Assembly: GCA_963924565.1 (NCBI GenBank)
Contig: OZ004607.1
Coordinates: 2,480,001-2,544,000, forward strand
Direction of reading: 5' to 3'
DNA: 64,000 nucleotides
Source of the DNA: Ascidiella aspersa
Lineage: Eukaryota
Numbering within the stretch: the stretch's first letter is position 1; every line of letters begins with the position of its first letter. Below the pieces are notes generated by a model, which saw only the letters and a list, made by a program, of their open reading frames with translations, was not told where the DNA came from and searched no databases. The position numbers and the translations under genes were made by a program. Of the stretch, positions 4,866-62,288 are shown piece by piece.

Positions 4866-5579
4866 ATGTCAAACAATCAAATTGAATTTTCTACGACGGA
4901 ACTGACAAAACAGAGCGATGATGGATTTTCTGATGATTCTGGGTCATCACAAGAACATGAACCTGTAAGTGAAGAGTCTGATTATAAAGAACAAAGTGAT
5001 TCGGATCTAAAGAAAACTTCTGAGAAGCAAATAAGTAAGGACAATCCAACAAAAAAGAACGAAATTGCAAGCAACAGCTTTGAGTTCCGTTGCAACATTT
5101 GCGAAAAGTTGTTCGAAAAGCGCTTTAAGCTCAATGCACATTTGTCCAGATTACACTTCAAGAAACACAAATGTGAGGTTTGTGGGAAACTGTTTGGGAG
5201 AAATAGCGAACTTGAAGATCATGTGAGAACTCATACTGGAGAAAAGCCTTTTAAATGTGCTTATTGCGCTAAATGTTTCAAAGTAGCTCAAAACTTGCAA
5301 GTACACGAACGAATTCACACTGGGGAAAGACCATATAAGTGCAAACATTGTGGAAAGCGTTTCACTCATTTGTCTAGCCTCAAAACTCATAACAAAATAC
5401 ACACCGGAGAAAAACCTTACAAATGTAAAGTTTGTGTCAAGTGTTTTGCTAGGGCAGCTACCCTTAAAGTTCATGAAAGAATTCACACTGGAGAAAAGCC
5501 TTTCAAATGTAAAGATTGCGAAAAATACTTTTCCCAGCTGGGACCTCTTCGAAAACATCAAAAGACTCACATCAAATGA
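4866..5579 (+). CDS. C2H2 zinc-finger protein, 6 fingers, acidic leader (ZNF-A)
   Basis: Open ORF with TGEKP linkers; splice acceptor TTTTCAG ending at 4850; AAACATG start; AATAAA at 5821. Confidence 0.93.
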   Translation: MSNNQIEFSTTELTKQSDDGFSDDSGSSQEHEPVSEESDYKEQSDSDLKKTSEKQISKDNPTKKNEIASNSFEFRCNICEKLFEKRFKLNAHLSRLHFKKHKCEVCGKLFGRNSELEDHVRTHTGEKPFKCAYCAKCFKVAQNLQVHERIHTGERPYKCKHCGKRFTHLSSLKTHNKIHTGEKPYKCKVCVKCFARAATLKVHERIHTGEKPFKCKDCEKYFSQLGPLRKHQKTHIK

Positions 5580-6807
5580 ATGCTTCGTAACAACAACAAA
5601 CCTTATAGTGCTTAGAACAATCCAATACAGATAAGCAAATGAATAACCACAAAACCTAAAATTGAAGTACACTTTTGCCTCGTTCTAATAACTTTCTAAA
5701 AATCGCTTTTTCATGTAAATTTACCAGTTGTTTCATCAGCAACTCTTGAAAGAAAATTTCTTGGCAAATTTAGCGCGTTTTTTGCTTTGTGTATCACCCC
5801 TAGATTTAAATCTGTCACAAAATAAATAAACAGCGCTGTGTTTAAAACATTAGTTTTTTATTACGTCATTTCTCGTAACATATATGCTTAATTTCGTGAA
5901 TTTAAACAGCCGCATGAAATTTATTAAGATTTATATTTATGCAACCACGCAAAATAAGCTCTACAACAGAATGGTAAAAAAATGATAAATGTTATGGTTT
6001 TGAAAGACTGCGTTCTTTAAGGCTACTGTAAGTTTTAACGGCCGAATATTTGTCTTTGTAAGTTGTAACGGCCCAATATTACTTTGGTTCTTTGAAACAG
6101 CATCTTGCAAGGAATATTAAACGACACTACTGTCTTATACCAATGTAAAAAATAATATATTATGCAATAAGAATATCAAAGCCCATACAGAATAACTCTT
6201 TATTCATTTTCAACATAGATATGATATTCTTATTACGTCTTACTACAACCTCCAACCATTATGCTCCAAAAAAAATATATTATGCGTTTTAAAAAATTAA
6301 CATCAAATAGCCGCATGTGGCCTGTGAGCCACAGTTTGCCAACCTCTGTAAATGTATATATATCATTTGTACCTGGATAATATACGAAATACATTGCGTT
6401 CTTTCAGTGAACTTTGATACTGGTTTCGGTTTGCCTAACAAGACAACATGATGCTCTAATGTGGACATGTTTGATAATGCTATAAACTAGGTAATCGGTT
6501 ATATATTAAGATGTCATCTTATAAGCAATAAATGCAAAAAGTTGAAAACGTATATGAGTTTGTCGCTTAAATGAGTTAATTTGCTGTGATTGTTGTTTGA
6601 TGTATAGAGTTTATATATTGTGTAAGATAAATTTAAGCATTCAATGCATTTATCTTTATAAATAAAAAAAGAAAACACGCAGCGCTTTAGCATCTAGCGA
6701 CTGTCTTTAAAAACTGCCAAACGACATCAACCATGATTAATTTTAAAGTATATTTGATTTGTCCGTTTCAAACCAAAAATAAACTACGCTTAATCTATTT
6801 GTACATG

Positions 6808-6900
6808 TAACTATCCATGCCTAACTTAAAACTAGCCATGCGTTACATTAAATCAGCCATGCGTTTCGGGCTTGCGTAAACGGAAATCATCAGTTTCAGA
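6808..6900 (+). promoter_or_regulatory. Putative ZNF promoter module: tandem CCATGCGTT motifs plus ETS-like CGGAA
   Basis: Motif array recurs at 12350, 22205, 28350, 39400 and 47995, each upstream of a ZNF unit. Confidence 0.45.
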
Positions 6901-7345
6901 AAAGCTGTGCGATGTTTATAGTTGCATTTCTGCAAAGCAGGCAGTGGCATTTTGTTTAGCTTATCGCGGTAAAAGCGTTCAACATTGTTTCTTAAAATTA
7001 CGATTTATTAGTTAGAAAAATGACAGCTGTATACGTTTGCTTGGAAACTGCAGATGTGGTTATGATTATATAATATACATAAAAATTTAGTGTTTATGTG
7101 GCAGCTCCATATTAACTAACAACAGCTACAATATTGGCCTTGTATATCAACACAATTTTAAATAAGGATGCACCATCATTAACCCTGTAAGAGGTTTAAG
7201 CCATTTAGTATAATTGTATACATGACGCTCAGTGGCTTATTTAGCAAGCTGTAAGTTGTAGGTTAAGAGTAGTAATTTAGCCGTCCATAGATTTTTGTTT
7301 ATGCTTCAGATAACAGTATGCTTTAGACTACAGTATTGTTTACAG

Positions 7346-7643
7346 CAGTTATTCCCAACTGTGTGCCGCGGCACACTGGTGTGCCTCGAGAGACTACTAA
7401 GTGTGCCGCGAAACTTTTTGTTATTTCGGAAAATAAGTTGTTTGTAATATACAAATTGGCATACACTTAGACTTAAAGCGCACTATAGCCATTACAAAGA
7501 ATCATGTTGAGACATTTGCAAATAGTTTGTCGTGTGGCAAGGGCGAATGTAAAATGACTCTATTGTTGTTCTGTTAAAAGTGTTCCGCGAAATATTTAAG
7601 ATATTTTTAGTGTGCCGTGAGTCAAAACATTTGGGAACCACTG
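7346..7643. mobile_element. hAT MITE
   Basis: CAGTTATTCCCAA...TTGGGAACCACTG TIRs; perfect 8-bp TSD GTTTACAG. Confidence 0.9.
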
Positions 7644-8087: not shown

Positions 8088-8865
8088 TGTGGGGGTATGG
8101 GTCCGGATTAAATGAGTCTTCATTTATATAATTGCCAAGATGAATCGACCACACTCCTACAAGATTTGAGATGGCCTGTCTTCGTGAGGCCATTCAGGTC
8201 CAATTCTTTCCTTTAGTTCAGATACATGAACAGTCAATTTTTGCTGTCTTCAGTCAAAGCTGTAAAAGCCTCTATCTCTTTTTCTGGTTTATATTGATTG
8301 AACACGCTATTTATAGACGAGAATCAGTTAAGAAAATTTCTGCGATAAAGAAAGATTTACGTCATTAATTCTTATAATACTTAACAAAATATCACGTGAT
8401 AACAAGGCGTGGTTTAAACCTTTTTCACACTTATTTCTGACGCGAAACATACAAATTTTACGTCAAAATACGATTGCGAAACAGCCTCTGCCTCCAGTTA
8501 AAATGTCAACAGTTTAAAAATCACACAACCGGGGAAACCGGCTAATGTTCAGACCGCGGTGTTTTGAAACATATACAAAAAAACGGATGTAAATACCTTG
8601 ACGCATAAAAATTGGTGTCAGCAATTTGAATTGTTTGCAAATTCGCTGCAAATATTATGTGGTTGCAAGAAATCTACGTAACGGAATTTTACCGAAAACT
8701 TTCCGCTTATCGTTTGCACATTGGCTGCAAGGAGTAACGTAAACATTAGAATATGGTTACAAAGAATTTAGGCCATAGATTTTTACTGAAAATTTTCCGT
8801 TACGACACATCGATTAAAAACAAAAATTCTCTGTGTAAACACAATATGACAAAATGGCTTCTACA
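8088..8865 (-). repeat. 3' LTR
   Basis: Direct repeat of 11199-11976; TATAAATA on the minus strand near 8310. Confidence 0.93.
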
Positions 8866-11167
8866 AATATTCCCACGCTAGATTTTGGAACAGCTTGCAT
8901 ATTAAAAGCTGGTTATTTGTTTGTGAAATGTGTGTGGACACGTGGACGCGAAAATTGTTCGATCACATAACGCATTTGCGCAATTGTTTTAGTCAGATTC
9001 CTGATTCCTCGAGAAAGTTTTCTCTTTGGTGCCTGAATTAGCAACCGAGGACTTTGATGTCAGCGTTCGCTGAGTTGCTCGAAATTGTTGTGTGCTTGAC
9101 ACACCATTGCATTGCTGTGGATTGAGCTTTTCAGGCGATCTGTGCGGCAGCAGGGGAAACTCCCTGTTTGGTGCGTTGTAATTTTGACGTCACCGGAAAG
9201 CCATTCATTGTGCGCTGCGCTGTGCTGTGACCTTTCGCTGTCCAACGTGCTTTTGTATTCTGAAAAATGCGAAATATTTTTCGGCAGATGTGTGTTCGTA
9301 TGTCTTGAACATTTTGATTGCAACACTTCAAACTTAAGTTATTAACATTTTGGTTATAGACACACATATTTTTTTTATACTTATATATATATAGGCGCGA
9401 CAGGTTACACTTAAAGTTTGAGACAATTAATTATTGCAATATATTCATTTAAATTTATATTCTTTGCGATTCATACAATGACATATACTTTATAGCGATT
9501 ACATGGTTATTTAATTTACATTATACGCGATACATAGAGTAACTTATACATAATGGTAACATTTTTACATTTCTTCGCTTCAACAGCGATACATACAATG
9601 ATTATAGTTATAACAATTTTGCAACAAGTGAACATTTGTGGGGCATTTCGCGAGCAACGTGCATTTTCATTGAAATTGGTTATCGTCATTCGACTGGCTA
9701 GTCGAAGTTTATCATAACTTCATTTTGGCGTGGCAACTCTAGGGTTTGTGAAATAGGACAGGCGTTGTTGGAAATTCTATCCAGCTATTTAGTAATTGCG
9801 ACCGCATATAGGTCTTGGTCGGATAAGGGGATTTTCTTATCGTGGAAATGGTAGAATTAACCACCATGATATATTTAGGGTCAACGTAGCAACAACACGT
9901 TAGCGATGAAAACTAGTGACCTAGCAAGCTATAGGATATTTGACGTTACCGAATATCATTGGTAACTTGCGGAATACATTTATAGCACTCGCTGAGAACT
10001 AATGCGTATGCTATGTATTCTTTTGAAAAGATAAGTGAAATTTATCTGGAAACGTAGAATTTTTGCTTTACATTTCGCTTGGAGGGATTAAGTACCGGCG
10101 TTGAAAAGCGATAACTTACGGAAACACCGCTAATGGGTTTTGTCGGTTGCTAGCTTACCAACATATTCAAAAGCGATCGAGTGGCAACTAAGCCTTGTAA
10201 GCCAGGCACGCCTTGGGCGTAAGTTTACAGATGAACAAGCTACTTTTTACGTAGGGTCAAGTGTCTTAACGCGTACTGGCAATCCTTGTTAAAATAGTAA
10301 GCTTTTGCGAGTGAGTTTCACAAAATGGTTCATGAGATATAATATATTAGACGTATAGAAGTGTACACTTAAAATTAGTCATTTTGACTGGCTTGCGTTT
10401 TATAAGTAGCTGCGGATCCGTTTATAGAAACGCTGTTTGTTTTAGGAAGGGAAAATGCGGTTGGAAACGAGTTCAGTTTCCACGTAGAGTGCCGTTACGG
10501 AAATTGTTTGATTTACGCCTATTTAATTGGGGTTGCATTTGAAAAGCACGAAGGCAAGCGATGCATTGAAAATATTTACATAAAACATTTAACACATTAC
10601 GAACGCGAGCAGGGTTTTATCCCTAAAGTCGTGTTTATAGACTTACACGAGTTGAAGCATATTTTTCGCTTGTGAATGACATTACTATGCTTTTACGAAG
10701 TATTTCCGCTACGCGTGCTTTGACGCGGGCAAAATTTGGACACATTTGAATGGCTCAAAAAAATGTCGCATAAACACTTTACAGACCTTTCGGTCGGTAT
10801 TTTAATAATTATATACATATATATTAAAAGTATAATAGATTTTCACCTGATAAACTAGGCAGAATCAGTTATTGTGAAATCCATAATTCCGTTTCGTTTT
10901 CCATGATTCCAAACAGTGGTGATGTCTTTATCGGCAACGCTTGTTTGTATTTCGTGTTTCGAATTCCAAGCAAATGCTTTGCTGACGCTATGGAGCGTCT
11001 CTTCACGTATCTTTCGATGAGATTAATTTCTTCTAAAGCTGGCTTCTTGCAAGTTCCAAACATGACAGTTTTTAGGCGGCCGTTTGTAGGTGGTCCATAC
11101 AGATTAAGGCACATATTTTTTTCTTTGAGCTTCGTTTCTTCAGTCTTCTTGGGAAAGTAGTTTGCAG

Positions 11168-11195
11168 GTGGTTCGTTCGTCACACGCGGGCATCA
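11168..11195 (-). promoter_or_regulatory. Degenerate PBS resembling elongator tRNA-Met 3' end
   Basis: Plus strand GTGGTTCGTTCGTCACACGCGGGCATCA versus recalled tRNA-Met GTGAGTTCGATCCTCACACGGGGCACCA; 3 nt from the LTR. Confidence 0.65.
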
Positions 11196-11198
11196 ATT

Positions 11199-11976
11199 TG
11201 TGGGGGTATGGGTCCGGATTAAATGAGTCTTCATTTATATAATTGCCAAGATGAATCGACCACACTCCTACAAGATTTGAGATGGCCTGTCTTCGTGAGG
11301 CCATTCAGGTCCAATTCTTTCCTTTAGTTCAGATACATGAACAGTTAATTTTTGCTGTCTTCAGTCAAAGCTGTAAAAGCCTCTATCTCTTTTTCTGGTT
11401 TATATTGATTGAACACGCTATTTATAGACGAGAATCAGTTAAGAAAATTTCTGCGATAAAGAAAGATTTACGTCATTAATTCTTATAATACTTAACAAAA
11501 TATCACGTGATAACAAGGCGTGGTTTAAACCTTTTTCACACTTATTTCTGACGCGAAACATACAAATTTTACGTCAAAATGCGATTGCGAAACAGCCTCT
11601 GCCTCCAGTTAAAATGTCAACAGTTTAAAAATCACACAACCGGGGAAACCGGCTAATGTTCAGACCGCGGTGTTTTGAAACATATACAAAAAAACGGATG
11701 TAAATACCTTGACGCATAAAAATTGGTGTCAGCAATTTGAATTGTTTGCAAATTCGCTGCAAATATTATGTGGTTGCAAGAAATCTACGTAACGGAATTT
11801 TACCGAAAACTTTCCGCTTATCGTTTGCACATTGGCTGCAAGGAGTAACGTAAACATTAGAATATGGTTACAAAGAATTTAGGCCATAGATTTTTACTGA
11901 AAATTTTCCGTTACGACACATCGATTAAAAACAAAAATTCTCTGTGTAAACACAATATGACAAAATGGCTTCTACA
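11199..11976 (-). repeat. 5' LTR
   Basis: Direct repeat of 8088-8865, adjacent to the PBS. Confidence 0.93.
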
Positions 11977-14423: not shown

Positions 14424-15395
14424 ATGTCGAACTACGAGATTGGAGTTACATCAAAAGATTTCCAATATGAGAACGATGATGATATTTCTAATCATCCTGT
14501 TGCCACGGTTACAGATTGTTCTTCACAAGAACATCAACCTGTGAAAGAAGAGTCTGATTGTGAAGAACAAAGTGACTTATATCAAATGGATACGAGAAAA
14601 GAACAAAGTAAGAGTCTTTCAACACAGAATACAGAGTTCCGATGTCACGTTTGCGAAAAGGTGTTTGAACATCAAAAACAGCTTAACTTACATTTGTCCA
14701 AGATTCACTTCAAGAAACACAAATGCAAGGTTTGTGGAAAACTGTTTGGTAGAAATTTCGACCTCGAAAGCCACATGCGAACTCACACTGGCGAAAAGCC
14801 TTTCAAATGTGCTTATTGCGATAAATGTTTCAGCCATGCTCAAACCTTAACAATACACAAACGAATTCACACTGGGGAAAGACCGTATGAGTGCAAAGAA
14901 TGCGGAAAATGTTTTGCCTATTTGGCCAGTCACAGAAATCACGAAAGAATTCACACTAGGGAAACACCTTTTCAATGTAAAGAGTGTGGAAAATGTTTTA
15001 TTCATGCACGAAGCCTCAGTTCTCATAAAACAACTCACACTGGAGAAAAACCATATAAGTGCAAAAAATGTGGAAAGTGCTTTAGCCAGGCAGAAAGTCT
15101 GAAAGCTCATCATAGGATTCACACTGGAGATAAACCTTACAAATGTGAAGAATGTGGAATGTGCTTTAGCCGGACATCAGATCTCAAAGCTCATCATAGG
15201 ATTCACACTGGAGAAAAACCTTACAAATGTGAAGAATGTGGAAAGTGTTTTCGCCAGATATCACATCTCGAAGCTCATCATAGGATTCACACTGGAGAAA
15301 AACCTTACAAATGTGAAGAATGTGGAAAGTGTTTTCGCCAGACATCAAGTCTTAATAAACACAAAAAAACGCACTCCAAAGAAGAAACGCTTTAA
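14424..15395 (+). CDS. C2H2 zinc-finger protein, 9 fingers, acidic leader (ZNF-B)
   Basis: Open ORF. Start placed at AAACATGTCG, homologous to paralog starts; an upstream in-frame ATG also exists. Fingers 6-9 are recent internal duplicates. Confidence 0.92.
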   Translation: MSNYEIGVTSKDFQYENDDDISNHPVATVTDCSSQEHQPVKEESDCEEQSDLYQMDTRKEQSKSLSTQNTEFRCHVCEKVFEHQKQLNLHLSKIHFKKHKCKVCGKLFGRNFDLESHMRTHTGEKPFKCAYCDKCFSHAQTLTIHKRIHTGERPYECKECGKCFAYLASHRNHERIHTRETPFQCKECGKCFIHARSLSSHKTTHTGEKPYKCKKCGKCFSQAESLKAHHRIHTGDKPYKCEECGMCFSRTSDLKAHHRIHTGEKPYKCEECGKCFRQISHLEAHHRIHTGEKPYKCEECGKCFRQTSSLNKHKKTHSKEETL

Positions 15396-16898
15396 AACAA
15401 AACTTCTGTTTAGCTTTGAATCTTGCAAAAACACATATTTGTAAAACTTATAGGTAACATAGAAAACACAGAAATACCAAACACAAACTTTGCAAAAAAG
15501 AATCCACAATGGTTGTAAATAATTAAAAATATATCTTCAATTTGAAGGAAATGTAAATATATTCGAGCTTCGAACATATATCGATGGGCAACTTCCTATG
15601 CTGGACTTATGCTACTTCAACAAAAGTAAAAACGGCGGATTTTTTACCACCGAACCGTTAGAGTATCTATTATCATTAAAACAGTTGCTTTAAAGTGTGA
15701 AGTCTTCACTTAATATTGTTAGTTTTCTGATCGAAATGGTTTTAAAGCGTTTGTAATTGTCGATGTACAATTTGTGTTTCAAACGTTTTAATGACATTTA
15801 CGCTTCGCATTTAAAAATGTAAGCCATCTTGTAGCGTAAAGGAAAATACAAATTACATGTTTTGTGTTTTATAATAAAAATGATTATTCAACAACACGCA
15901 TCCGAGGTTTTTGGAAAGAGTTGCGTATTTAAAACCACACAGAAATTAACATTACAGAAAAACATTTGAGTGCAAAATATGTCAAAAATGTGAGGTTATG
16001 ATACAAGTCTTTCAAATACTTTAATTACGCATAATGGAAACTTAGATTTAAATTTTTTCTGGTATTTAATCCTAGTTATACGTTGATTCAGCTTTTCAAT
16101 TTATCTTTACGTCGTCCGAGTGCGACTGTGGTAATAACTTTTAACACAACACGATTTCATTTTCTCGCTCAAGGCAATTTCCTTTAACTAGATTTGCTGC
16201 AATAAACTAAATATAATAAGCATACCTGGATGTTGGTGTTTCTGTTGTTTCCGTTTACATTTTTGGATATATAAGTTAGTGGTATTTTAAAGTTTTATAG
16301 TTATTAGACAATTTTGACGCAAAAGTGTAACTTGCATTCTACAATTCATGAGTTTAAGCATCTGCATTAAATTAATGAAAATATATATATTTATGCAACC
16401 ACGCGAGGGCTCTGAAGCCACAACAGAAGGTTGAAACATGAAAACAAATGATGAATATCATGGTAATTTTACAGAGTGGGTTCTTTAAAGCCACTGTAAT
16501 AGCTCAACATCGTCGTGTTTATGTTCTTCGAAGCAGCAACACTGAAATAATACAACAACACAGGATAAACTAGTTTGTTACGGAATTATACAAAAATATT
16601 ATTTCTGATTTGAATCAATTTAATCATAATTAATGCTGTAGATGCGCAACAGAACTTTATCAATCTTTGAAACAAAAAGCCACAGTTTTTAAACCTGTTA
16701 ATGTATACTTTGTTTGTACCTGGATAATATACGAAATAGAACGCGTTCTTGCAGTGAACTTAATACTGGTTTCGGTTTGCCCATCAAGACAGCACGGTGT
16801 TCTAAGGTGAAAATGTTTATAATTGTTTAAAACTAAATCAGTTATAAATCAAGACATCATGGTACAAGCGTCTAATCTCATTCGCAGCTGCGATAAAT

Positions 16899-17065
16899 AA
16901 CACTCTGCTAGCAGCAGCGTTGCGGGGATCGAACCCGTCGTTATCCTGGCTTACTGTTCAGTGTTCGCCGCTTTGTCAATCCGGCGCCAGGACAATTATC
17001 ACCGTTTATCTGAACAGGAAGCATCTTGTCGTTCGACCCGATAAAACCAACCAAGCAAATGTGTT
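16899..17065 (-). ncRNA. Candidate Pol III structured RNA (vault-RNA-like or tRNA-SINE-like), copy A
   Basis: B box GGTTCGATCC; terminal panhandle; internal 10-bp stem; conserved in 5 copies. Confidence 0.45.
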
Positions 17066-17555
17066 TAACGTCATATTAGTGTTTGTACTGAGTGCAGTTT
17101 ACTGTACAAGGCTGAACAGACTAGTTGCTGGAGATATCTTTTGGGAATTTTAATAAATCAAAGGCTTTAAAGCTGTATGGAATATTTAAAATATATACAT
17201 TTGTTAATTTTATTTTGTATTGCAAGCCATTTATATACTACAATGACCGCCGATTGTTTAAGTATGCCGAGTTAGGTTTTCATTAGGTCTATCTAACTTC
17301 TAATTAATGCCAGCAGATATAAATTTGATAAAGGGTTGGTGATATTTCTTATAAACGCACTTTAATCCGGTAGCTAGAAATTCGTGAAAGCTTTAGAAAC
17401 AATGAATGGAAGCTAAGGTAGTTTAAAGTAGATTTTAACATCATAAGAACTAGAGCTATTTCAAACAGTTGTTGTTAATATAAAGTAGCTGGGAGAGATA
17501 TAATTTCATGCAAAGCTCGTTTTCATGCGCTAGGGAGCTTTGTAATCCTATATAC

Positions 17556-18859: not shown

Positions 18860-18932
18860 CTTTCAGGAAATAAATAAACATGTCAAAACACCAGACCGAT
18901 TTTGCAACAAAATATTTGAAAAACGAAAGCTC
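18860..18932 (+). pseudogene. ZNF 5' remnant (acceptor plus MSKHQTDFATKYLKNES), body deleted
   Basis: TTTCAG...AAACATGTCA matches the family start; homology stops after ~17 codons. Confidence 0.7.
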
Positions 18933-21146: not shown

Positions 21147-22940
21147 TGGAATTAACATTACACAAGAAACATGTGAACTGAAACCTAATGTTATAAAATG
21201 GCGTACGTCGGGCATAATGAAAATAGACCGACACATAATATTTATGTCGGAAAAAGTTAACCATCGGAAAGTTGTAAACTATTACTTGCGACCCCTTCTT
21301 ACAATTTTGCAAGATAAAAGTTTATTTTGGTTGCTGATCAAACTTCAACGCCTTTTTCGTTTTTATAATCGCTGTAAAATATTTAATGAATGTCGTCAAA
21401 CTTTTTGTTTCTATAACAACATGTCTTTTGGTATTTAAATTTAGATTATGGAGCAAAAATTTTAAAAGCATTTTACAAGTATGTTTAGTTAGGCTTGCCA
21501 AAGTAAAACGAGATACATACCGTTCACCAACCTCACACCTATACGTCCTTAGTTTGCCATTATTTTACTGTTAAACAGTTGTTTAATGGTATCGATGGAC
21601 AGGCAGGCTACTGTGTAACTCTATGTATATATGTTGCCTTCCGCTGTAATTTTGATTTCTAACGTTTGTTTGAAGCCTTCATTAAACATTACTACTCAAC
21701 ATTGCTTATTTGTAGTCACAATGCACGTGACTGTTGTCTACTGACGGGTGACCAAACCGAACAGTGGACTATCGGCGTTTTTCGATGCATTGTACTTTTT
21801 AAGACTTATAGACTAGCGACTTTAATAACCGGGTTATTTTATCGTGTGTTCTGAGATTTGTGAATATATATTCAACGAGCAATCAACTGAGTGAAGTGAC
21901 TCTTTCTAGGGTTCAAGAAGTGTAGGTCAGTCATTTAGGCGGCCTTACCTGTAAATACGTCTGCTAATCGCTAAATGCTATATACTGATACGCTATCAGT
22001 TCTTATAATGTTACTGCAAAACATAGCAATGCTGTATTTTGTTAATTCCATTCCTTAAAATCGAGCAGAAACTTTTGAGAAAAAATAAACGTCTTTAAAA
22101 ACTGCCAAATGACCCCAACCATGAATAATTTTAAAGTATATTTGATTTATTTGTTTCAACCCAAAAATAGAATACGCTTAATCTATTTGTACATGTAATC
22201 TATTTGTAACTATCCATGCGTTAGATTTAATCAGCCATGCGTTTCGTGCTTAACGAAACGGAAGTTATCAGTTTCAGAAAAGCTTTGCGATGTGTATAGT
22301 TGCATTTCTGTAAAGCAGGCAGTGGCATTTAGTTTAGCTTATCGCGGTAAAAGCGTTCAGCATTGCTTCTTAAAATTATGATTTATTTGTTAGAAAAATG
22401 ACAGCTATATACGTTTGCTTGGAAACTGCAGATGTGGTTATGATTATATAATATACATAAAAATTTAGTGTTTATGTGGCAGCTACATATTAACTAACCA
22501 CAGCTACATTATTAGGCCTTGTATATCAACACAATTGTCAATAAGGATGTACCATCATTAACCCTGTAAGAGGTTAAAGCCATTTATTATAAATGTATAC
22601 ATTACGCTCAGTGGCTTATTCAGTAATCTTCAACTTGTAGGTTAAGAGTAGTAATTTAGCCGTCCATAGATTTTGGTTTATGCTTCAGCTTACAGTATGC
22701 TTAAGCCTACAGTATTGTTTACAGCAGTGATTCCCAAACTGTGTGCCTCGAGAGACTACTAAGTGTGCCGCGAAACTTTTTGTTATTTCGGAAAATAAGT
22801 TGTTTGTATTATACAAACTGGCAAACACTTAGACTTAAACGCGCATTATAGCAATTACAAACAATCATGTTGAGACATTTACAAATAGTTTGTCGTATGG
22901 TAAGGGCGATTGTAAAATGACTCTATTGTTGTTCTGTTAA
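21147..22940 (+). repeat. Segmental duplication, paralog of ~27300-29110; 22090-23040 also matches ~6700-7710
   Basis: Near-identical sequence, including the shared hAT MITE at the same site. Confidence 0.9.
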
Positions 22941-22976: not shown

Positions 22977-24070
22977 GTTTACAGTATGCCGGTAAAAAGC
23001 GAACAGACTGATGGAATGTCAATAACCTCCGCAGCGTTTCTTCTAGCTGTTTAAAAAACGAGCTACTGTATGAACGCGAGGAAGTATGAAGCAAAATGTT
23101 ATTAAACCCAGTTTTAATCCAGGGAGTGTATACCTTTTACAAAAAAGGTATAAACTATAGTGACATGTTTAGGCGATAATATGACGCAATAATAGACGAC
23201 ATTTGGTGATAGGGCCTCAGTGTGTGGCGAGCCAACTTATAATTGTAGTTCTAGTTTATCACTGCTTGTACTTACGCGAGACAAGGTTAAATCAATGTAT
23301 GTTTGCTCAAAATCTATTTTCTACATCTTATTGTAAACGTATAGCAGTCATCAGCCCTATACACATGTTTTGTCAGAATGAAAACAATTGCGTCCAAACT
23401 TTTATAAGTAATTCGTTATCATTATTAACATGTATTTTTAAATAGCATCGGGCTGGCACATTCGAATAACCAGTTCCAAACTTTTTGGTCAAGAGGCCGC
23501 TGTTAGTTTCGTCGCGATATTCGTTATCAATCTAATGGTGTTGTTGCGTTGTTTTTTTATTTCATTTTAAACCAAGCATTTTGAGAAGTTTGGAAAGCTT
23601 AGTTGCTATTGAAAGGTTCGGGTTCGATAAACGTTTTTTATGTTAATTGCGCAACAAACCAATAACAGTCTGGTCACAGATGTGCGCTTTTACATGAGAA
23701 AAAGGGAATTTAACTTACTTTCATTAATGAACAAAACTATTTATATAATATTAAAGAGCATTGGCCAGAGGTTGTGGTAATGCAGTGCTTCGTATTATTA
23801 GTGAGCTTATACTTGTTACTTTTCAGAAAGAAAAATTAAAACATGTCAAACCACCAAAGTGATTTTTGTACGAACTGACAAAAGAAAGCGAAGTTGGATT
23901 TTCTGATGATTCGGTTGACACGATTACAAATTGGTCATCACAAGAACATCAACCTGTAAGTGAAGCGTCCGATTGTGAAGAACAAAGCGACTTAGATCAA
24001 TTGGATATTTCTAAGAAGGATAGAAGTAAGAATAATCCAACAAAAGAAGGACAAAATTACAAACAACAAC

Positions 24071-24835
24071 ATGGAGTTTCGATGCAACATTTGCGAAAAG
24101 TTGTTTAAAAATCGTCGTAAGCTTAATATACATTTGTCCACAGTTCACTTCAAAAAACACAAATGCAAGAATTGTGGGCAACTTTTCGGGACTGCAACCG
24201 CACTTGAAATTCACATGCTAATTCACACTGGCGAAAAACATTTCAAATGTGCTTACTGCGATAAATGTTTCAACCATCCTCAAAACTTGAAAGTCCACGA
24301 ACGAATTCACACCGGGGAAAGACCACATGACTGCAAAGTTTGTGGAAAATGTTTCACTCATTTGTCTAGCCTCAAAACTCATAATAAAATACACACCGGA
24401 GAAAAACCTCACAAATGCAACGAATGTGGAAAGTGTTTTATCGTAATATCAAGTCTTAAACAACATGAAAGAGTTCACACTGGAGAAAAACCTTACAAAT
24501 GTGAAGAATGTGGAAAGTGTTTTAGCCTGGCAGGACATCTTAAAGAGCATAAAAGAGCTCATACTGGAGAAAAGCCATACAAATGCAACGAATGTGGAAA
24601 GTTTTATCGCCATGCCTCAAGTCTTAATAAACACAAAAGAACGCATCCTAAAATGAAACCTTTAAAACCAAAACTTGTGACTAGTTTTAAATCACACAAA
24701 CAGGAAATGAAACACAACAATGGTATGTTATATAAGTTCAAGATATATCTGCAATTTATAGAAAATATGAATAAGTGCGAGCTTCGAATATATATCAAAG
24801 TGCAACTTCCTATTCTGTATGCCACTTCAACTTAA
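24071..24835 (+). CDS. C2H2 zinc-finger protein, 7 fingers, leaderless (ZNF-C); possibly a pseudogene
   Basis: The ancestral ATG at 23843 reads 11 codons to TGA after a frameshift. The finger array is open from ATG 24071, and the C-terminus reads into the former 3' UTR. Confidence 0.65.
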
Positions 24836-25545: not shown

Positions 25546-26245
25546 CACGGATCCGTCAACACAGAATGCAACGTTCCGATGTCACGTTTGTGAAAAGGAA
25601 TTCAAAAACTGTGACATACTAAAACAGCATTGGCTGGAGTTCACTTTAAGAAACACAAATGCAAGGTATGTGGGAAAATGTTTGGAACAATTTATGCACT
25701 TGCAATCCACATGCGATTTCACACTGGAGAGAAACCCTTCAAATATAATTATTGCGCAAAATGTTTCCACCTAGCTTCAAACTTGACAGTACACGAAGAA
25801 TTCACACTGGAGAAAGACCATATGAGTGCAAACATTGCGGAAGATGCTTTACCCAAGCACATCATCGTAATGATCACGAAACAATTCACACTGGAATAAA
25901 ACCTTACAAATGCAAAGATTGTGGAAAATGCTTTTCTCAATCAGGAAGTCTAACAAACCACGAAACAATTCACACTGAGTTAAAATCTCACCAATGCAAA
26001 TATTGTGGAAAATATTTCAACCTTGCTGCAAGTCTTAGATCACATGAAAGAGTTCACACTGAGGAAAACCTCACGAATGTACAATTTGTGGAAAATGTTT
26101 TAGCCAGAGAAGACATCTTAAAGTTCATGAAAGAATTCACACTGGAGAAAAACCTTACGAATGCAAAGAATGTGGAAAGTGTTTTAGCCAGGCATCAAAT
26201 CTTAATAAACACAAAAGGACCCACTCAAAAGAAGAAACATTTTGA
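25546..26245 (+). pseudogene. 5'-truncated, multiply frameshifted copy of ZNF-D (32.4 kb)
   Basis: Fingers split across frames (ORFs 25630 and 25752); Cys-to-Tyr change in finger 3; near-identical to 32445-33147. Confidence 0.92.
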
Positions 26246-32421: not shown

Positions 32422-33147
32422 ATGACAACCAAGAAGGAACAAAGCACGAATCCGTCAACACAGAATGCGACGTTTCGATGTCGCGTTTGTGAAAAGGAAT
32501 TCAAAAACTGTGACATACTAAAACAGCATTTGGCTGGAGTTCACTTTAAGAAACACAAATGCAAAGTTTGTGGGAAAATGTTTGGAACAATTAATGCACT
32601 TGCAATCCACATGCGAATTCACACTGGAGAGAAACCCTTCAAATGTGCCTATTGCGCAAAATGTTTCCACCAAGCTGCAACCTTGAAAGTACACGAACGA
32701 ATTCACACTGGGGAAAGACCGTATGAGTGCAAATATTGTGGAAGATGCTTTACCCAAGCACATCATCGTAATGATCACGAAACAATTCACACTGGAATAA
32801 AAGCACACCAATGCAAATACTGTGGAAAATGTTTTAACCTTTCAGCAAGTCTTAGATCACATGAAAGTGTTCACACTGAGGAAAAACCTCACGAATGTAC
32901 AATTTGTGGAAAATGTTTTAGCCAGAGAAGACATCTTAAAGTTCATGAAAGAATTCACACTGGAGAAAAACCTTACGAATGCAAAAAATGTGGAAAGTGT
33001 TTTAGCCAGGCTTCAAATCTTAAAGTTCATGAAATAATTCACACTGGAGAAAAACCTTACAAATGCAAAGAATGTGGAAAGTGTTTCAGCCAGGCAGGCC
33101 ATCTTAGTAGACACAAAAGAACGCACTTTAAAGAAAAAACCTTTTAA
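32422..33147 (+). CDS. C2H2 zinc-finger protein, 8 fingers, leader inactivated (ZNF-D)
   Basis: The ancestral ATG at 32304 stops after 7 codons, and there is an in-frame TAA at ~32371. The array is open from internal Met 32422. Confidence 0.75.
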
Positions 33148-38338: not shown

Positions 38339-39082
38339 ATGTCAAAGCACGAAGGGTATTTTGTAAGTACAAAGCTGAAAAAGGAGAGCGATGATGGATT
38401 TTGTGATGATTCTGTTGAAACAATAACAAATTGTTCATTACAAGAACATCAACCTGTAAGTGAAGAGTCCGATTGTGAAGCACTAAGTTACTTGAATCAA
38501 ATGAATGCTACGGAAGATCAAAGCAATAGTCTTTCAACACAGAATACAGAGTTTCGCTGTCACATTTGCGAAAAGTGTTTCAAATATCGTTACAAACTAA
38601 AACAGCATTTGACTGGATTTCACTTCAAGAAACATAAATGCAAGGTTTGCGGGAAAATGTTTGGCAGAAATAACGACCTTGAAATCCACGTGCGAACTCA
38701 CACCGGAGAAAAGCCCTTTACATGTGCTTATTGCGATAAATGTTTCAACCATGCTCAAACCTTGAAATACCACGAACGAACTCACACTGGGGAAAGACCA
38801 TATCAGTGCAAATATTGTGGAAAATGTTTTACTCGATTGTCACATCTCAAAACACATAATAATATACACACTGGGGAAAGACCATACAAATGTAAAGTTT
38901 GTGGAAAATGTTTTAGCCATACAGGAAGTCTTACATATCATGAAAGGATTCACACTGGAGATAAACCTTACAAATGCAAAGAATGTGGAAAGTGTTTTAG
39001 CCGGACATCACTTCTTACTAAACACAAAAGAACTCACTCTAAAGAAGAAACCTTTCAAAACAAAACTTGTGATCAGTTTTGA
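38339..39082 (+). CDS. C2H2 zinc-finger protein, 6 fingers, full acidic leader (ZNF-F)
   Basis: Acceptor TTCCAG ~13 nt upstream; AAAATG start; open ORF. Confidence 0.93.
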   Translation: MSKHEGYFVSTKLKKESDDGFCDDSVETITNCSLQEHQPVSEESDCEALSYLNQMNATEDQSNSLSTQNTEFRCHICEKCFKYRYKLKQHLTGFHFKKHKCKVCGKMFGRNNDLEIHVRTHTGEKPFTCAYCDKCFNHAQTLKYHERTHTGERPYQCKYCGKCFTRLSHLKTHNNIHTGERPYKCKVCGKCFSHTGSLTYHERIHTGDKPYKCKECGKCFSRTSLLTKHKRTHSKEETFQNKTCDQF

Positions 39083-47177: not shown

Positions 47178-47510
47178 ATGTCAAACTGTGAGTTTAAATT
47201 TGCGTCGAAAGATTTAAAATATGAGAGCGATGATGGATTTTTTTTGAAGAATGTGGAAGATGTTTTACTCAATTAGGTGGTCTAAAAGTGCATGAACGAA
47301 TTCACACTGGAGAAAAAACCCATAAGTGCAAACATTGTGAAAAATCTTTTCGTCAGTTAAGTGCTCTGAGAGTTCATGAAAGGATTCATTCAAGAGAAAA
47401 CCTAATGAATGTAAAGAATTTAGAAAATGTTTTGTTCAATTAAGTCGTATAAAAGTTGATAAACGAAGATAATCCATATGTAAAGAATGTGGAAAATGTT
47501 TGGCTCAAAA
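47178..47510 (+). pseudogene. ZNF pseudogene (paralog of ZNF-B) with internal deletion
   Basis: MSNCEFKFASKDLKYESDDGFF* fused out of frame to two fingers, then decayed fingers. Confidence 0.88.
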
Positions 47511-49665: not shown

Positions 49666-50718
49666 ATGTCAACCCGTCACAACGTTTTGTTTGCGATGGA
49701 TCGGATAAAAGATTGTGGAGAGGACAAAACAAATATCAGAAAAGAACAAAGCAAGAATCAAACAACTACAGAGTTCAGATGTCACGTTTGCGAAAAGCGT
49801 TTTAAAAATATTTCCGTCTTAAAATATCACTTATCAAAGGTTCACTTCAAGAAACACAAATGCAAGGTTTGTGGGAAACTGTTTGGTGAAAATTACCACT
49901 TTAAACGCCACGTGAGAACTCACACTGGAGAAAAACCCTTTAAATGTGCTTCTTGCGATAAATCATTCAACCGAGCTCAAACTTTGAAAGTACACGAACG
50001 AATTCATACTGGCGAAAGACCCTATGTATGCAAAGTTTGTGGAAAGTGTTTTGCCCAGGCAGGACATCTTAAAGAACATGAAAGAATTCATACTGGAGAA
50101 CGACCTTATGAATGCAAAGAATGTGAAAAATGTTTTAGTAATGCCGGAGATCTTAAAGAACATGAAAGAATTCACACTGGTGAAAAACCCTACAAGTGTG
50201 CTTATTGCGCTAAACGCTTTAATCGAGCTCAAAACTTAAAAGTACACGAACACATTCACACTGGAGAAAGACCCTTTGTATGCAAAGTTTGTGGAAAGTG
50301 TTTTACCCATGCAGGAAGTCTTAAATATCACGAAAGAATTCACACTGGAGAAAAACCTTACAAATGTAAAGAATGTGCAAAATGTTTTACCCATGCAGGA
50401 AGTCTTAAATATCATGAAAGAATTCACACTGGAGAACGACCTTATAAATGCAAAAAATGTGGACAATGTTTTACCCATGCAGGAAATCTTAAATCTCATG
50501 AAAGAATTCACACTGGAGAACGACCTTATGAATGCAAAGAATGTGGAAAATGTTTTACCCATGCAAGAAGTCTTAAATATCATGAAAGAATTCACACTGG
50601 AGAACGACCTTATGAATGCAAAGAATGTGGAAAATGTTTTAACCAGGCAGGAAGTCTTAAAAGACATAAAATGACGCACTCTAAAGAAGAAAGCTTTAAA
50701 AACAAAACGTGTGGTTAG
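49666..50718 (+). CDS. C2H2 zinc-finger protein, 11 fingers, shortened leader (ZNF-G)
   Basis: Open ORF; acceptor TTTCAG at ~49652; fingers 7-10 near-identical (THAGSLKY type). Confidence 0.93.
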   Translation: MSTRHNVLFAMDRIKDCGEDKTNIRKEQSKNQTTTEFRCHVCEKRFKNISVLKYHLSKVHFKKHKCKVCGKLFGENYHFKRHVRTHTGEKPFKCASCDKSFNRAQTLKVHERIHTGERPYVCKVCGKCFAQAGHLKEHERIHTGERPYECKECEKCFSNAGDLKEHERIHTGEKPYKCAYCAKRFNRAQNLKVHEHIHTGERPFVCKVCGKCFTHAGSLKYHERIHTGEKPYKCKECAKCFTHAGSLKYHERIHTGERPYKCKKCGQCFTHAGNLKSHERIHTGERPYECKECGKCFTHARSLKYHERIHTGERPYECKECGKCFNQAGSLKRHKMTHSKEESFKNKTCG

Positions 50719-53737: not shown

Positions 53738-54549
53738 ATGTCAAACCAAGGCAATTTTGTAATTTACAAAGCTGAAAAACGAGGGCGAAGATGGTTTTTT
53801 GAATATCGCATTGTCAGCATGACAGAATGTATATCACAAGAACATCAACCTGTAGGTGAAAAGTCTGATTGCGTAAAACAAAGTAACTTGGATCAAATGA
53901 ATACTAGGAAAGAACAAAACAAGAGTCTTTCAACACAAAATACACAGTTCCGATTCAAAAATCGCCACGCACTAAAACATCACCTGTCTAGAGTTCACTT
54001 CAAGAAACACGAATGCGTGGTTTGTGGAAAACTGTTTGGGAGAAATATCGAACTTGAAAACCACGTGCGAATTCATACTGGAGAAATGCCCTTGAAATGT
54101 ACTTATTGCAATAAATGTTTCAATATAGCTCAAAACGTGAAAGTACACCAACGAATTCACACTGGAGAAAGGCCTTTTAAAAGTGCTAAAAAACATTTTG
54201 CGATAAATGTTTCAACCGAGCTTACATCTTCAAAAGACACGAACGAATTCACACTGGGGAGAGACCATATGAGTGCAAAATTTGTGCAAACTGTTTTAAC
54301 CAAGCAGGACATTTTAATAATCATGAAAGAATTCACACTGGCGAGAAACATTACAAATGCAAAGAATGTGGAAAGTGTTTTAACCTAGCAGGAAATCTTA
54401 AAACACATGAAAGAATTCACACCGGAGAAAAACCTTACAAATGTACAGAATGTGGAAAGTGTTTTGGCAAGGCAGGACATCTTAGTAGACACAAAAAAAT
54501 TCACTCTAAAGAAACCATAGTAGAACAAAACTTGTCAAAAAAGCTCTGA
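53738..54549 (+). pseudogene. ZNF pseudogene (close to ZNF-H)
   Basis: CxxC of finger 1 deleted; frameshifting insertion near 54190; downstream fingers continue in another frame. Confidence 0.88.
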
Positions 54550-57338: not shown

Positions 57339-58016
57339 ATGTCAAACAACGAAGACTATTTTGTAATAAAAGAGCTGAAAAAAGAGAGCGAAGATGGATT
57401 TTCTAAATATCGCAGCATGACAGAATGTTCATCACAAGAACATCAACCTGTAAGTGAAAAGCCCGATTGCGTAGAACAAAGCAAGAATATTTCAACGCAG
57501 AGTACAGAGTTCCGATGTCACATTTGTGAAAAGTTGTTCAAAAATCGTCACGCACTAAAATATCACCTGTCTAGAGTTCACTTCAAGAAACACGAATGCA
57601 AGGTTTGTGGGATACTGTTTGGAGAACTTACCACACTTAAAAACCACGTGAGAATTCACACCGGAGAAAGACCCTTTATATGCAAAGTTTGTGGAAAGTG
57701 TTTTGCCCAGGCAGGACATCTTAAAGATCATGAAAGAGTTCACACTGGAGAAAAACCTTACGAATGTAAAGAATGTGGAAAGTGTTTTAGCCTAAGAACA
57801 AGTCTTAAAGGTCACAAAAACACTCATACTGGTGAAAAACCTTACCAATGCCAAGAATGTGAAAGGTGTTTTACTCAGGCAGGGTCACTTAAATATCATG
57901 AAAGGATACACACTGGAGAAAAACCTTACAAATGCAAAGAATGTGGAAAGTGTTTTAACAGGAAATCAAATCTTAATCAACACAAAAGAACTCACTCTAA
58001 AAAAGAAACCTTTTAA
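57339..58016 (+). CDS. C2H2 zinc-finger protein, 6 fingers (ZNF-H)
   Basis: Acceptor TTTTCAG at ~57325; open ORF. Confidence 0.93.
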   Translation: MSNNEDYFVIKELKKESEDGFSKYRSMTECSSQEHQPVSEKPDCVEQSKNISTQSTEFRCHICEKLFKNRHALKYHLSRVHFKKHECKVCGILFGELTTLKNHVRIHTGERPFICKVCGKCFAQAGHLKDHERVHTGEKPYECKECGKCFSLRTSLKGHKNTHTGEKPYQCQECERCFTQAGSLKYHERIHTGEKPYKCKECGKCFNRKSNLNQHKRTHSKKETF

Positions 58017-59618: not shown

Positions 59619-60235
59619 TAACGTCATGTTAGTGTTTGGAGTGAGTGGAGTTTGCTGAACAAGGCTGTACTGACTAGGCTAGTTTGCTGTAAATATTGAA
59701 AATGTGTAGAAGGCAAGTATATATGTGCTAATTTTTTATGTTTCCACTAAAACATTTATAAGACAGCTAAGTAAGTCCTTAGGATTTTAAAAGTTATGCA
59801 TCTTTATTGTAAATTTTGAAATGCAAGACACAAGGACTTATTGCTGTTAATTACTGTCAGAAAATAAGAGCGCGTGGCCTCGACCTCGTCAAGTTAGTTA
59901 GTTTTTTTTTAAATGCATATTAAAAGATATAACATACACGTAAGAGGCGCAAACAAACGGTGTCAATTCGCACAAGAATATAGGCTTACAGTAACTTATT
60001 TATATACGAGGTCTACTGCTCGCTTTGATGACAAATTTGTCGTTGTTTCCTACTTTGATTGCAGAACAATTACAGTATATTTTTAGGCCACAATTTGGCG
60101 CAATTATAATTATAACAATTTTGGCGCAATATTTGGCCCAAATAGGCGCATGTAGTCAGTCATATCCACAGACGTGTTTATGCTTCTGTTAATTTTCGGT
60201 AAGTTGTTTGCACTAACAGAATGCAGCAGGCATTG

Positions 60236-60295
60236 ATCTGTGTTGGTCAGTTGGTAAAGCGACGGTTTCGGTATGACCGAGGTCGTGAGTTGGAA
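60236..60295 (+). mobile_element. tRNA-derived SINE head, 3'-truncated
   Basis: TTGGTCAGTTGGTAAAGCGACGGT...ACCGAGGTCGTGAGTT; paralogous position to 20642 and 31163. Confidence 0.55.
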
Positions 60296-61268
60296 AGTTA
60301 TATCCGAGTAGTTTTACGAACAGTTTACAAACGAGAGAAAACAATAAAAGTCCTTTTGTGTATAACACGGTGATAAATGTCAATCGGGATTATTACAGCA
60401 TTTCAAAGGTATAGACTTATCATTGTTTTAGAACTATTAGAAGTTGCTAGGAATGCTTGTTATTGCTTTGTAATCTTGTGAGTCTTAAAAAAGGCAGATT
60501 TGGCCCTTAAAAGTGCAATAGCGGATGTTAAAAAAACTAGCTGTTCTATTCGAAACTCCCTTTTATGTATGCTATTTTAGACTGCTGTAAATTCTCTCCA
60601 AACTTGTTTCTATTGTGGCTTAAATAACGCAATAAAACAGTTGGTTCTGTTTATTTAGCTTTTGATTTTTACACATCTTCATATTCTTTTATGCCAAAAT
60701 TACTTTATTATGCCTTAGGGTGGCTTAGTAATTCTCTATACACGTACGATGTTAATTTGAATATTTATTTAAACATTTGGCAGGCCTTTTTTTAGAATAG
60801 CGTAAAGCAAGTCTTTTTGGGGGAGTTCTCGTAACCTGTATTGCCAGGTGCTGGAATTTTGTAATTTCCATGTGCCTTATTAAAATGGGTTTTTATTGCA
60901 AAAGTCACGTACATTTATTATTAACAAAGATCGAAGACTGTTGATAAAATAGGCTGCATACATGGGCCAATAGCATTGTAGTTACACTTTGCTAGATAAA
61001 AATCCCGAGTACTAATGTAGTAGAACGAATTCTTCTCAGCAAATTGTTTCAGTAATGGAGAACGTGGTTTGTCACAGTCGTTATTTAAACGCACCTTAAT
61101 TTGTTGTTATGAGGTTAGATCGTCCATCTATGTTGTGCTAAAATTTATATCTTTAGGAATAAAGTATAAATCTTTAACCACCAACTTTCCTGGTGTTCCT
61201 GTTGAAACGAAGAACATCAACCTGTAAGTAAAGATTCCGATTGTGAAGAACGAAGTGATTTGGATCAA

Positions 61269-62288
61269 ATGAATACAAGGAAAGAACAAAGCAAGAATAT
61301 GTCAACACAGAATACAGAGTTTCGATGTCACGTTTGCGAAAAGTGTTTTAAATATCGTTACAAACTAAAACAGCATTTGACTGGATTTCACTTCAAGAAA
61401 CATAAATGCAAGGTTTGCGGGAAAATGTTTGGAACAACTTTCAAACTTGAAAACCACATGCGAATTCACACTGGGGAAAAACCATATGAGTGCAAAGAAT
61501 GTGGAAAGTGGTTTACTCAGGCAGGACATCTTAAACAACATGAAATAATTCACACTGGAGAAAAACGTTTTAAATGTAAAGAATGTGGAAAATGTTTTGG
61601 CCGTGCAGGGAGTCTTAAAGAGCATCAAAGAGTTCACACTGGAGAAAAACCTTACAAATGCAAAGAATGTGAAAAATGTTTTAGCCAGGCAGGACATCTT
61701 AAAGAGCATGAAATAATTCACACTGGAGAAAAACGTTTCAAATGTAAAGAATGTGGAAAATGTTTTAGTAATCCTAGAAGTCTTAAAGTTCATGAAAGGG
61801 TTCACACTGGAGAAAAACCTTACAAATGCAAAGAATGTGGAAAATGTTTTAGTGAGGCAGGAAGTCTTAAAGTTCATAAAAAAGTTCACACTGGAGAAAA
61901 ACCTTACAAATGCAAAGCATGTGGAAAATGTTTTGGCCATGCAGGGAGTCTTAAAGAGCATCAAAGAGTTCACACTGGAGAAAAACCTTACAAATGCAAA
62001 GAATGTGGAAAATATTTTGGCCGTGCAGGGAGTCTTAAAGAGCATCAAAGAGTTCACACTGGGGAAAGACCGTATGATTGCAAATATTGTGGAAAATGTT
62101 TCACCCAAGCAGGAAATCTTAAAAATCATGAAAGAATTCACACTGGAGAAAAACCTTATAAATGCAAAGATTGTGGAAAGTGTTTTAGTGAGGCAGGAAG
62201 TCTTTATAGACACAAAAAACACACTCTAAAGAAGATGAACCAGATGGCATTGTGTAATCCAAATTGTATTGGATTCTCGATAAGTTAA
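61269..62288 (+). CDS. C2H2 zinc-finger protein, 11 fingers (last one distorted), leader lost (ZNF-I)
   Basis: Ancestral ATG absent near 61170; first ATG is at 61269. A 1-nt deletion in the last finger gives HKKH and a novel tail. Confidence 0.82.

What the first reader, a model, noticed from the sequence alone, without database searches (positions are those of the whole stretch)
4866..62288. Lineage-specific tandem ZNF array with a non-KRAB acidic leader: candidate invertebrate analogue of KRAB-ZNF transposon surveillance
Seen in sequence: about 15 same-strand copies or remnants in 58 kb, finger number 6-11, active birth-and-death, interleaved with young TEs. The leader has two conserved blocks, (L)KxESDDGFxDD and SQEHQPVSEESDCEEQSD. 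Established knowledge: psi-K-x-E followed by acidic residues is the NDSM SUMOylation motif (LKKE at 38.3 and 57.3 kb, LKYE 47.2 kb, LKNE 18.9 kb, VKEE 14.5 kb). DDG-phi-x-D is the phosphorylation-independent beta-TrCP degron of Cdc25 (DDGFSD in ZNF-A, DDGFCD in ZNF-F). Inference: an undescribed effector module coupling SUMO-dependent repression with rapid turnover on fast-evolving DNA-binding arrays.
Basis: partly seen in the sequence, partly recalled or inferred. Interest (0 to 1): 0.7.

Follow-up and report, generated by a model that had tools for sequence, protein, structure and literature searches.

The report
Sea-squirt zinc-finger family with private leader
This is one stretch of a roughly 140-copy zinc-finger gene family, likely of a sea squirt, whose DNA-reading tips change fast while a short acidic front end, found in no database searched, is conserved; it likely parallels the transposon-silencing zinc-finger families of vertebrates, but the proposed SUMO site is not conserved and no target is shown.

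Summary
The array is real: 13 same-strand copies or remnants (not ~15), 4 with a full leader. It is a slice of a larger family: 147 leader matches, 142 on the first 10 Mb of one contig; 88 of 138 leader loci examined are open genes. Mitochondrial code and beta-TrCP point to an ascidian. The ~40-residue leader core is under purifying selection (dN/dS 0.30-0.35; DDGFSD 0.20-0.25), looks disordered and has no relative in Pfam or 1.84 billion proteins. The SUMO site is not a family feature (24 of 83 genes; dN/dS 0.7-0.9). The beta-TrCP-type DDG-phi-x-D is (49 of 83), but neighbouring residues are equally constrained. Base-contacting finger residues evolve at or above the neutral rate, as in KRAB and FiNZ families. 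Transposon targeting, repression and degradation are untested. Verdict: a new lineage-private version of a known pattern, closest to fish FiNZ-ZNFs.

The parts
4866..5579 (+). Intact gene A: leader (DDGFSD at 4917, middle of core deleted) plus 6 C2H2 fingers, one coding exon
14424..15395 (+). Intact gene B: leader without the DDG motif, 9 fingers; about 3-fold read depth over the leader on one strand in one RNA run
18880..18930 (+). Remnant: first 17 codons of a leader, no fingers
23843..24646 (+). Copy with two frameshifts in leader and spacer, 7 fingers
25556..26224 (+). Broken copy, leader lost, frameshifts in array; 82% alike to the 32.3-kb copy
32320..33147 (+). Copy with 5'-cut leader holding a stop; 8 fingers in one open frame
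34763..35410 (+). Divergent copy with a short leader that lacks the DDG part, 6 fingers; paralogue at C1 5.26 Mb
38339..39082 (+). Intact gene F: full leader (LKKE 38375, DDGFCD 38390), 6 fingers
38384..38485 (+). Constrained leader core in gene F (alignment columns 16-57)
47178..47500 (+). Remnant: 22 leader codons joined to finger debris
49666..50718 (+). Open gene with 11 fingers and a different short leader without the acidic core
53738..54549 (+). Frameshifted copy; first finger partly deleted
57339..58016 (+). Intact gene: leader with LKKE and EDGF but deletions in the core, 6 fingers
61200..62288 (+). Copy missing the first half of the leader; 10 fingers plus a broken one, internal repeats 81-84% alike
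22220..22390 (+). Family-specific non-coding block with a CGGAAGT word (ETS-type, label recalled), 0.4-3.1 kb upstream of start codons; likely promoter; copies also at 6842-7012 and 28364-28531
16880..17140 (+). Second conserved non-coding block, nearly confined to the clusters; copies at 30445, 55864, 59431
8088..11976 (.). Young LTR-like element (TG...CA, 778-bp repeats 99.7% alike, no long ORF), transcribed, polymorphic; a neighbour, not part of the gene family
1..1488 (-). Gag-protease frame of an LTR retrotransposon; a neighbour

Best explanation
This is a tandem family of single-coding-exon C2H2 zinc-finger genes whose base-contacting residues change fast while a disordered acidic leader is conserved, so the proteins likely read many different, changing DNA targets, likely including transposons, and use the shared leader to bind one common partner. 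Shown: family size and clustering, birth and death, purifying selection on the leader core, neutral-or-faster change at DNA-contact positions, no known relative of the leader. Inferred: the core is a multi-serine phosphorylation module (an S-x-x-S-x-x-T relay in 61 of 83 genes; kinase labels recalled) that holds a beta-TrCP-type degron and would make the proteins short-lived; the same core would also carry the effector function, most likely repression as in FiNZ- and KRAB-ZNFs. SUMO at the claimed lysine is not the mechanism.
For: 147 leader matches among 150 scored, 142 on contig C1. 135 of 138 leader loci are followed by fingers; 88 open, 50 broken. dN/dS on 78 genes: core 0.30-0.35, DDGFSD 0.20-0.25, spacer 0.7-0.8, structural finger residues 0.03-0.06. 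Fingers 3 and later in 14 clades of recent duplicates: contact positions 2.6 (CI 2.3-3.5) against 0.05 structural. In a stricter finger-by-finger count on 20 disjoint pairs: contact pN/pS 1.2-1.7 against 0.41-0.49 for other positions, position -1 at 2.0-2.9 (p 0.001-0.006). 83 of 83 arrays differ; 327 fingerprints among 522 fingers. DDG-phi-x-D in 49 of 83 against 0.0006 per shuffled leader; the motif is a described phosphorylation-independent beta-TrCP degron (PMC9606124, PMC10487276); a beta-TrCP gene is in the genome. The same pattern (clustered, acidic N-terminal domain, positive selection) marks FiNZ-ZNFs, whose knock-down de-represses young elements. A young, transcribed, polymorphic LTR-like element lies in the window.
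Against: No target, partner or repression is shown. In the stricter count, positive selection over all contact positions is significant at only one of three thresholds (p 0.31, 0.24, 0.03), and positions 3 and 6 are not above 1, so the value is likely inflated by mis-paired fingers. Among recent duplicates the leader evolves at 0.6, like the spacer. 34 of 83 open genes lack the strict DDG motif, and several old branches have lost it while keeping the rest. The 49 motif copies descend from one ancestor, so they are one draw; a loose beta-TrCP pattern arises in 21% of shuffled leaders. Residues that a degron does not need are as constrained as the motif. RNA depth on the one leader examined was about 3-fold, from 6% of one run. 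In bugs, ZF271-like expansion did not track repeat content (PMC6444547).
Confidence: 0.5

Rival explanations
1. The leader is only a turnover signal: a degron with phosphorylation sites that keeps many near-redundant DNA-binding proteins scarce, with no co-repressor; any effect on genes comes from occupancy.
For: The most constrained leader residues include G, F, S, D of the DDG motif; the model is disordered; no HP1, CtBP or HCF motif in 83 genes, an eh1-like word in 4 and a SUMO-binding word in 1 (patterns recalled).
Against: Constraint runs about 25 residues beyond the motif; open genes without the motif persist (34 of 83).
Confidence: 0.2
2. The family regulates host genes or binds satellite or structural DNA rather than transposons; the fingers diversify because of drifting or conflicting host targets.
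For: Fast contact residues do not name a target; ZF271-like expansion in bugs did not track repeat content. Conserved shared upstream blocks suggest a common expression programme.
Against: Across animals ZNF number tracks retroelement number and predicted sites favour elements (passages).
Confidence: 0.15
3. The leader is an acidic activation domain and the proteins are activators.
For: Median minimum net charge -12 per 39 residues, with conserved F and W.
Against: 0 of 83 leaders pass the published acidic-activator rule; median 4 W/F/Y/L where 7 are asked. The rule finds only one subclass.
Confidence: 0.08
4. The cluster is mostly a duplication-prone region of spare copies drifting without individual function.
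For: 50 of 138 leader loci are broken; leader dN/dS is 0.6 among recent duplicates; low RNA depth.
Against: Structural finger residues at 0.02-0.09 even in recent duplicates; leader core 0.3 on the deep tree.
Confidence: 0.07

Closest known systems
FiNZ-ZNF genes of cyprinid fish (Wells et al., bioRxiv 10.1101/2022.11.29.518450; passages read)
   Same: Lineage-private acidic N-terminal domain unlike known domains, many copies gathered on one chromosome arm, positive selection on base-contacting residues in recent duplicates.
   Different: FiNZ is 28 residues on its own exon; this leader is about 55 residues in the same coding exon as the fingers and carries a DDG-phi-x-D motif. FiNZ repression of elements is shown by knock-down; nothing is shown here. 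I did not align the two domains directly.
KRAB-ZNF genes of tetrapods (Emerson and Thomas, PMC2604467; passages)
   Same: Tandem clusters, birth and death, finger gain and loss, diversifying DNA-contact residues, TGEKPY-type linkers.
   Different: No KRAB match in the leader or in the genome search (weak as a negative); no separate N-terminal coding exon inferred; leader predicted disordered.
ZF271-like/APEZ expansions of hemipteran insects (PMC6444547; passages)
   Same: Independent invertebrate expansion, tandem clusters, pseudogenes, no KRAB.
   Different: I saw no shared N-terminal domain described in the passages read; there expansion did not track repeat content.
DDG-phi-x-D degron of CDC25A/CDC25B (PMC9606124, PMC10487276; passages)
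   Same: Exact motif match in 49 of 83 genes; a D-[DES]-G-x4-S spacing like that of CDC25A in 54 of 83.
   Different: Here it is embedded in a longer constrained core and is lost in a third of open genes; function untested.

Membership tests
KRAB-ZNF | N-terminal KRAB domain (PF01352) | tested here: not met
   No KRAB hit in 4 full proteins or in 49 leaders at E up to 1; 0 matches in the genome, with the tool's warning that controls did not ring.
KRAB-ZNF | Effector domain on an upstream coding exon | tested here: not met
   A pyrimidine-rich YAG lies 10-17 nt before the ATG in 54 of 83 genes, in mixed phase (21/26/7), so no coding exon joins in one frame (inferred, no spliced read seen).
KRAB-ZNF | Recruits KAP1/TRIM28 and represses | not testable with these tools
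   Needs experiments.
FiNZ-ZNF | 28-residue FiNZ domain, cyprinid-specific, own exon | tested here: not met
   Host is not a fish; the leader profile finds no protein among 1.84 billion representatives; single coding exon. No direct domain alignment was made.
Lineage-specific poly-ZNF expansion (the general kind) | Tandem clusters with birth and death and finger-number change | tested here: met
   2-17 fingers, 88 open and 50 broken of 138 loci.
Lineage-specific poly-ZNF expansion (the general kind) | Positive selection on base-contacting residues | tested here: inconclusive
   Likelihood 2.6; stricter count 1.2-1.7, clearly above 1 only at position -1. Far faster than other finger positions in both.
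Lineage-specific poly-ZNF expansion (the general kind) | Binds and silences transposable elements | not testable with these tools
   No binding predictor or element library available.
NDSM SUMO site | Conserved psi-K-x-E before an acidic patch (definition recalled) | tested here: not met
   24 of 83 at the site; dN/dS 0.7-0.9; not distinguishable from 1 under one of two frequency models.
beta-TrCP DDG-phi-x-D degron | Motif present, conserved and in a disordered region | tested here: met
   49 of 83 strict, 60 of 83 relaxed; dN/dS 0.20-0.25; pLDDT 57, pTM 0.15.
beta-TrCP DDG-phi-x-D degron | Binding and degradation depend on the motif | not testable with these tools
   Needs pull-down and half-life assays.
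Acidic activation domain | Charge at most -9 with at least 7 W/F/Y/L in 39 residues (PMC10550315 formula) | tested here: not met
   0 of 83.

The most novel reading that the evidence does not exclude
An ascidian lineage independently built a KRAB-like transposon-silencing zinc-finger system whose private leader both recruits a repressor and carries a built-in beta-TrCP timer, so that some 90 different DNA readers are made from a shared promoter and destroyed on a shared clock.
Probability: 0.15. Interest if true: 0.75.

Novelty: new variant of a known kind. Interest (0 to 1): 0.45.

Why it matters
Tunicates are the closest invertebrate relatives of vertebrates, and Ciona was counted among the poorest animals in poly-zinc-finger genes (just over 100; PMC2604467). 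A 140-copy family with its own constrained N-terminal module would be another independent case of the KRAB/FiNZ pattern, in embryos that are easy to electroporate. The shared start context would allow one knock-down reagent against many members, as was done for FiNZ. If the degron is real, it adds a way of regulating such families that I did not see described in the listing.

Tried and rejected
Complex prediction of a leader with the WD40 domain of Phallusia beta-TrCP (a stand-in): no verdict, score 0.06 against a mark of 0.34, alignments not used, controls not folded; no evidence either way. Homologue searches for the leader were blank: word-based search, 0 of 3 candidates; profile against 1.84 billion representatives, 0; ESM Atlas, none for the leader and only generic C2H2 clusters with fingers included. 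The full protein returned generic vertebrate and other ZNFs, no tunicate name among the 120 listed. No RNA holder was listed in the index; one raw RNA run showed no splice joint at gene B at the listing threshold, so cis- or trans-splicing at the acceptor is open. The conserved non-coding blocks are not tRNAs or Rfam families and not dispersed repeats; a GT[AG]AG donor within 300 nt after the ETS-type word was found in only 12 of 34 genes. Retrocopy origin of the C5 copy was rejected: it keeps about 850 bp of upstream DNA and the promoter-like block. Motif scans for PxVxL, PxDLS and DHxY gave 0 of 83. A dynein-light-chain-like T-x-T-D word and ATM-type SQE (62 of 83) were noted from memory and not tested.
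Full report
Observation. All C2H2 arrays in the window are on the + strand. Finger scan, tblastn and a leader profile give 13 copies or remnants: four with a full leader and an open array, four with open arrays and short or cut leaders, three frameshifted and two remnants. The quoted motifs stand where stated, but two of the five SUMO-like words are in remnants and one is at another position. Copies are mostly 70-82% alike in DNA, and spacer DNA is duplicated with them.

Host. In the mitochondrial COX1 and CYTB frames AGA and AGG fall at glycine positions, which is the ascidian code (label recalled). A beta-TrCP exon is 95% identical to Phallusia mammillata, 89% to two Ciona species, 88% to Clavelina and 77% to Styela. 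The host is therefore likely a phlebobranch ascidian. Earlier scan notes on this genome say the same.

Family. One leader as query gave 138 matches among 150 scored, another 147 among 150, 142 of them on contig C1, nearly all between 0.63 and 5.4 Mb. These are lower bounds, and some genes match twice. In 864 kb of fetched DNA a profile found 138 leader loci: 88 open with four or more fingers, 47 broken but followed by fingers, 3 without fingers. For 83 frames chosen by a start-codon rule, finger number runs from 2 to 17, all arrays differ, and 522 fingers beyond the second show 327 fingerprints. The first two fingers and their short FKKH linker are a family signature.

Gene structure. A pyrimidine-rich YAG lies 10-17 nt before the ATG in 54 of 83 genes, in all three phases (21, 26, 7). 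I infer that what is spliced on is non-coding and that leader and fingers share one coding exon. Two non-coding blocks travel with the genes and are nearly confined to the clusters. They are more alike than fourfold sites of the linked genes: 0.90 against 0.77 in 26 of 26 distant pairs, and 0.80 against 0.68 in 224 of 311 (found by BLAST, so biased upward, and the pairs are not independent). One holds a CGGAAGT word and is likely the promoter. One RNA run, 6% read, gave about 3-fold depth over the leader of gene B on the strand opposite to the element's reads, and no listed joint. Only 9.1 kb of the window was examined with reads.

The leader. No Pfam family fits (best E 0.006, one member of 49). 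A profile of 49 leaders found nothing among 1.84 billion representatives; two searches were blank too. AlphaFold2 gave pLDDT 57 and pTM 0.15, with a weak helix at residues 4-18 and no structure in the core. A codon model on 78 genes (5 of 83 dropped for frameshift or large gaps; 129 columns) gave dN/dS 0.30-0.35 for the core, 0.20-0.25 for DDGFSD, 0.6-0.7 for the first residues, 0.7-0.8 for the spacer and 0.03-0.06 for structural finger residues. Among recent duplicates the leader is less constrained, 0.6 (CI 0.5-0.8), equal to the spacer.

SUMO and degron. psi-K-x-E is at the claimed site in 24 of 83 genes; LTKE is the commonest word; these columns give 0.7-0.9. It is not the conserved feature. 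DDG-phi-x-D occurs in 49 of 83 genes, 60 with D/E exchanges, against 0.0006 per shuffled leader. The motif is described as a phosphorylation-independent beta-TrCP degron (PMC9606124 and PMC10487276, passages), and the genome encodes beta-TrCP. Against reading too much into it: the copies share one ancestor; a loose pattern arises in 21% of shuffles; several old members have lost it; and the free position of the motif, two threonines, the SQEH word and the SEESDC word are as constrained. An S-x-x-S-x-x-T relay in 61 of 83 genes suggests stepwise phosphorylation (kinase rule recalled). No leader passes the published acidic-activator formula (0 of 83; PMC10550315, passages).

The fingers. In 14 clades of recent duplicates (43 genes) contact positions of fingers 3 and later gave 2.6 (CI 2.3-3.5), those of fingers 1-2 only 0.7. 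On the deep tree single helix positions of fingers 1-2 reach 1.0-2.5. Because fingers are shuffled, I repeated the test finger by finger on 20 disjoint pairs (79, 72 and 61 finger pairs at three identity thresholds): contact pN/pS 1.19, 1.28, 1.68 (p 0.31, 0.24, 0.03), other positions 0.41-0.49, structural 0.05-0.09, position -1 at 2.0-2.9 (p 0.001-0.006), positions 3 and 6 not above 1. The strictest threshold lowers the synonymous baseline. So contact residues are free or mildly favoured to change; strong positive selection is not secure.

Mobile elements. A 3.9-kb element with 99.7% alike terminal repeats lies between genes A and B, is covered by RNA at about 17- to 137-fold on one strand, and is skipped by a contig of one run. 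A gag-protease frame opens the window. Neighbourhood is not targeting; binding could not be predicted here.

Mechanism. Best reading (0.5): many different DNA readers share one disordered phospho-acidic module that likely binds a common partner and likely shortens their life through beta-TrCP; by analogy with FiNZ- and KRAB-ZNFs they likely repress changing targets such as transposons. Rivals: turnover signal only (0.2), host-gene or satellite targets (0.15), activator (0.08), spare copies (0.07).

Comparison and novelty. The pattern is known: FiNZ-ZNFs (a TRIM33 link proposed in PMC11603059, passages), KRAB-ZNFs and other poly-ZNF expansions, where unannotated N-terminal domains were expected, and ZF271-like genes. 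It works like these in its evolution but is a member of neither KRAB nor FiNZ. Searches listed no paper on an ascidian family of this kind; searches none on this motif combination. I saw listings only for those, and the library lacks most subscription journals. New here: the domain, the single coding exon, the degron-like motif, the host group. Interest 0.45.

Noticed in passing
window 16880-17140 (copies at 30445, 55864, 59431): A 260-bp non-coding block, 85-95% alike among about 25 full copies, in the orientation of the genes, more conserved than their fourfold sites; not tRNA or Rfam. A few partial matches on C6 and C3. Could be an enhancer, a non-coding exon or an RNA.
   Followed up: partly
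window 8088-11976: Young non-autonomous LTR-like element, 4-bp target duplication, high copy by contig depth, transcribed on one strand, empty site in run X1.
   Followed up: partly
10-17 nt upstream of family start codons, e.g. window 38326: Conserved splice acceptor with no consistent upstream donor; could be a spliced-leader trans-splicing site, common in ascidians (recalled).
   Followed up: partly
window 49666-49780; G000:C1 957099, 2615589, 2637987, 5250905, 5300584: A subfamily with a different N-terminus (RHNVLFAM-like word) that has lost part or all of the acidic core yet keeps open arrays: a natural control for leader function.
   Followed up: no
G000:C1 2.41-2.77, 5.24-5.39, 0.90-1.05 and 1.34-1.46 Mb: Close paralogues pair across clusters megabases apart and on opposite strands, pointing to recent segmental, partly inverted, duplications.
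   Followed up: no
L139 (G000:C9 542001-550000): Two genes with the family's first fingers but a barely recognisable leader; possible outgroup for the origin of the domain.
   Followed up: partly
window about 6190-6270: Very high-copy short repeat (summed contig depth above 100,000), MITE- or SINE-like.
   Followed up: no
L112 (G000:C7 30046519-30046731): A nuclear fragment matching COX1, likely a mitochondrial insertion.
   Followed up: no
window 3888-4142: Short tandem duplication of about 100 bp, 80% alike, upstream of gene A.
   Followed up: no
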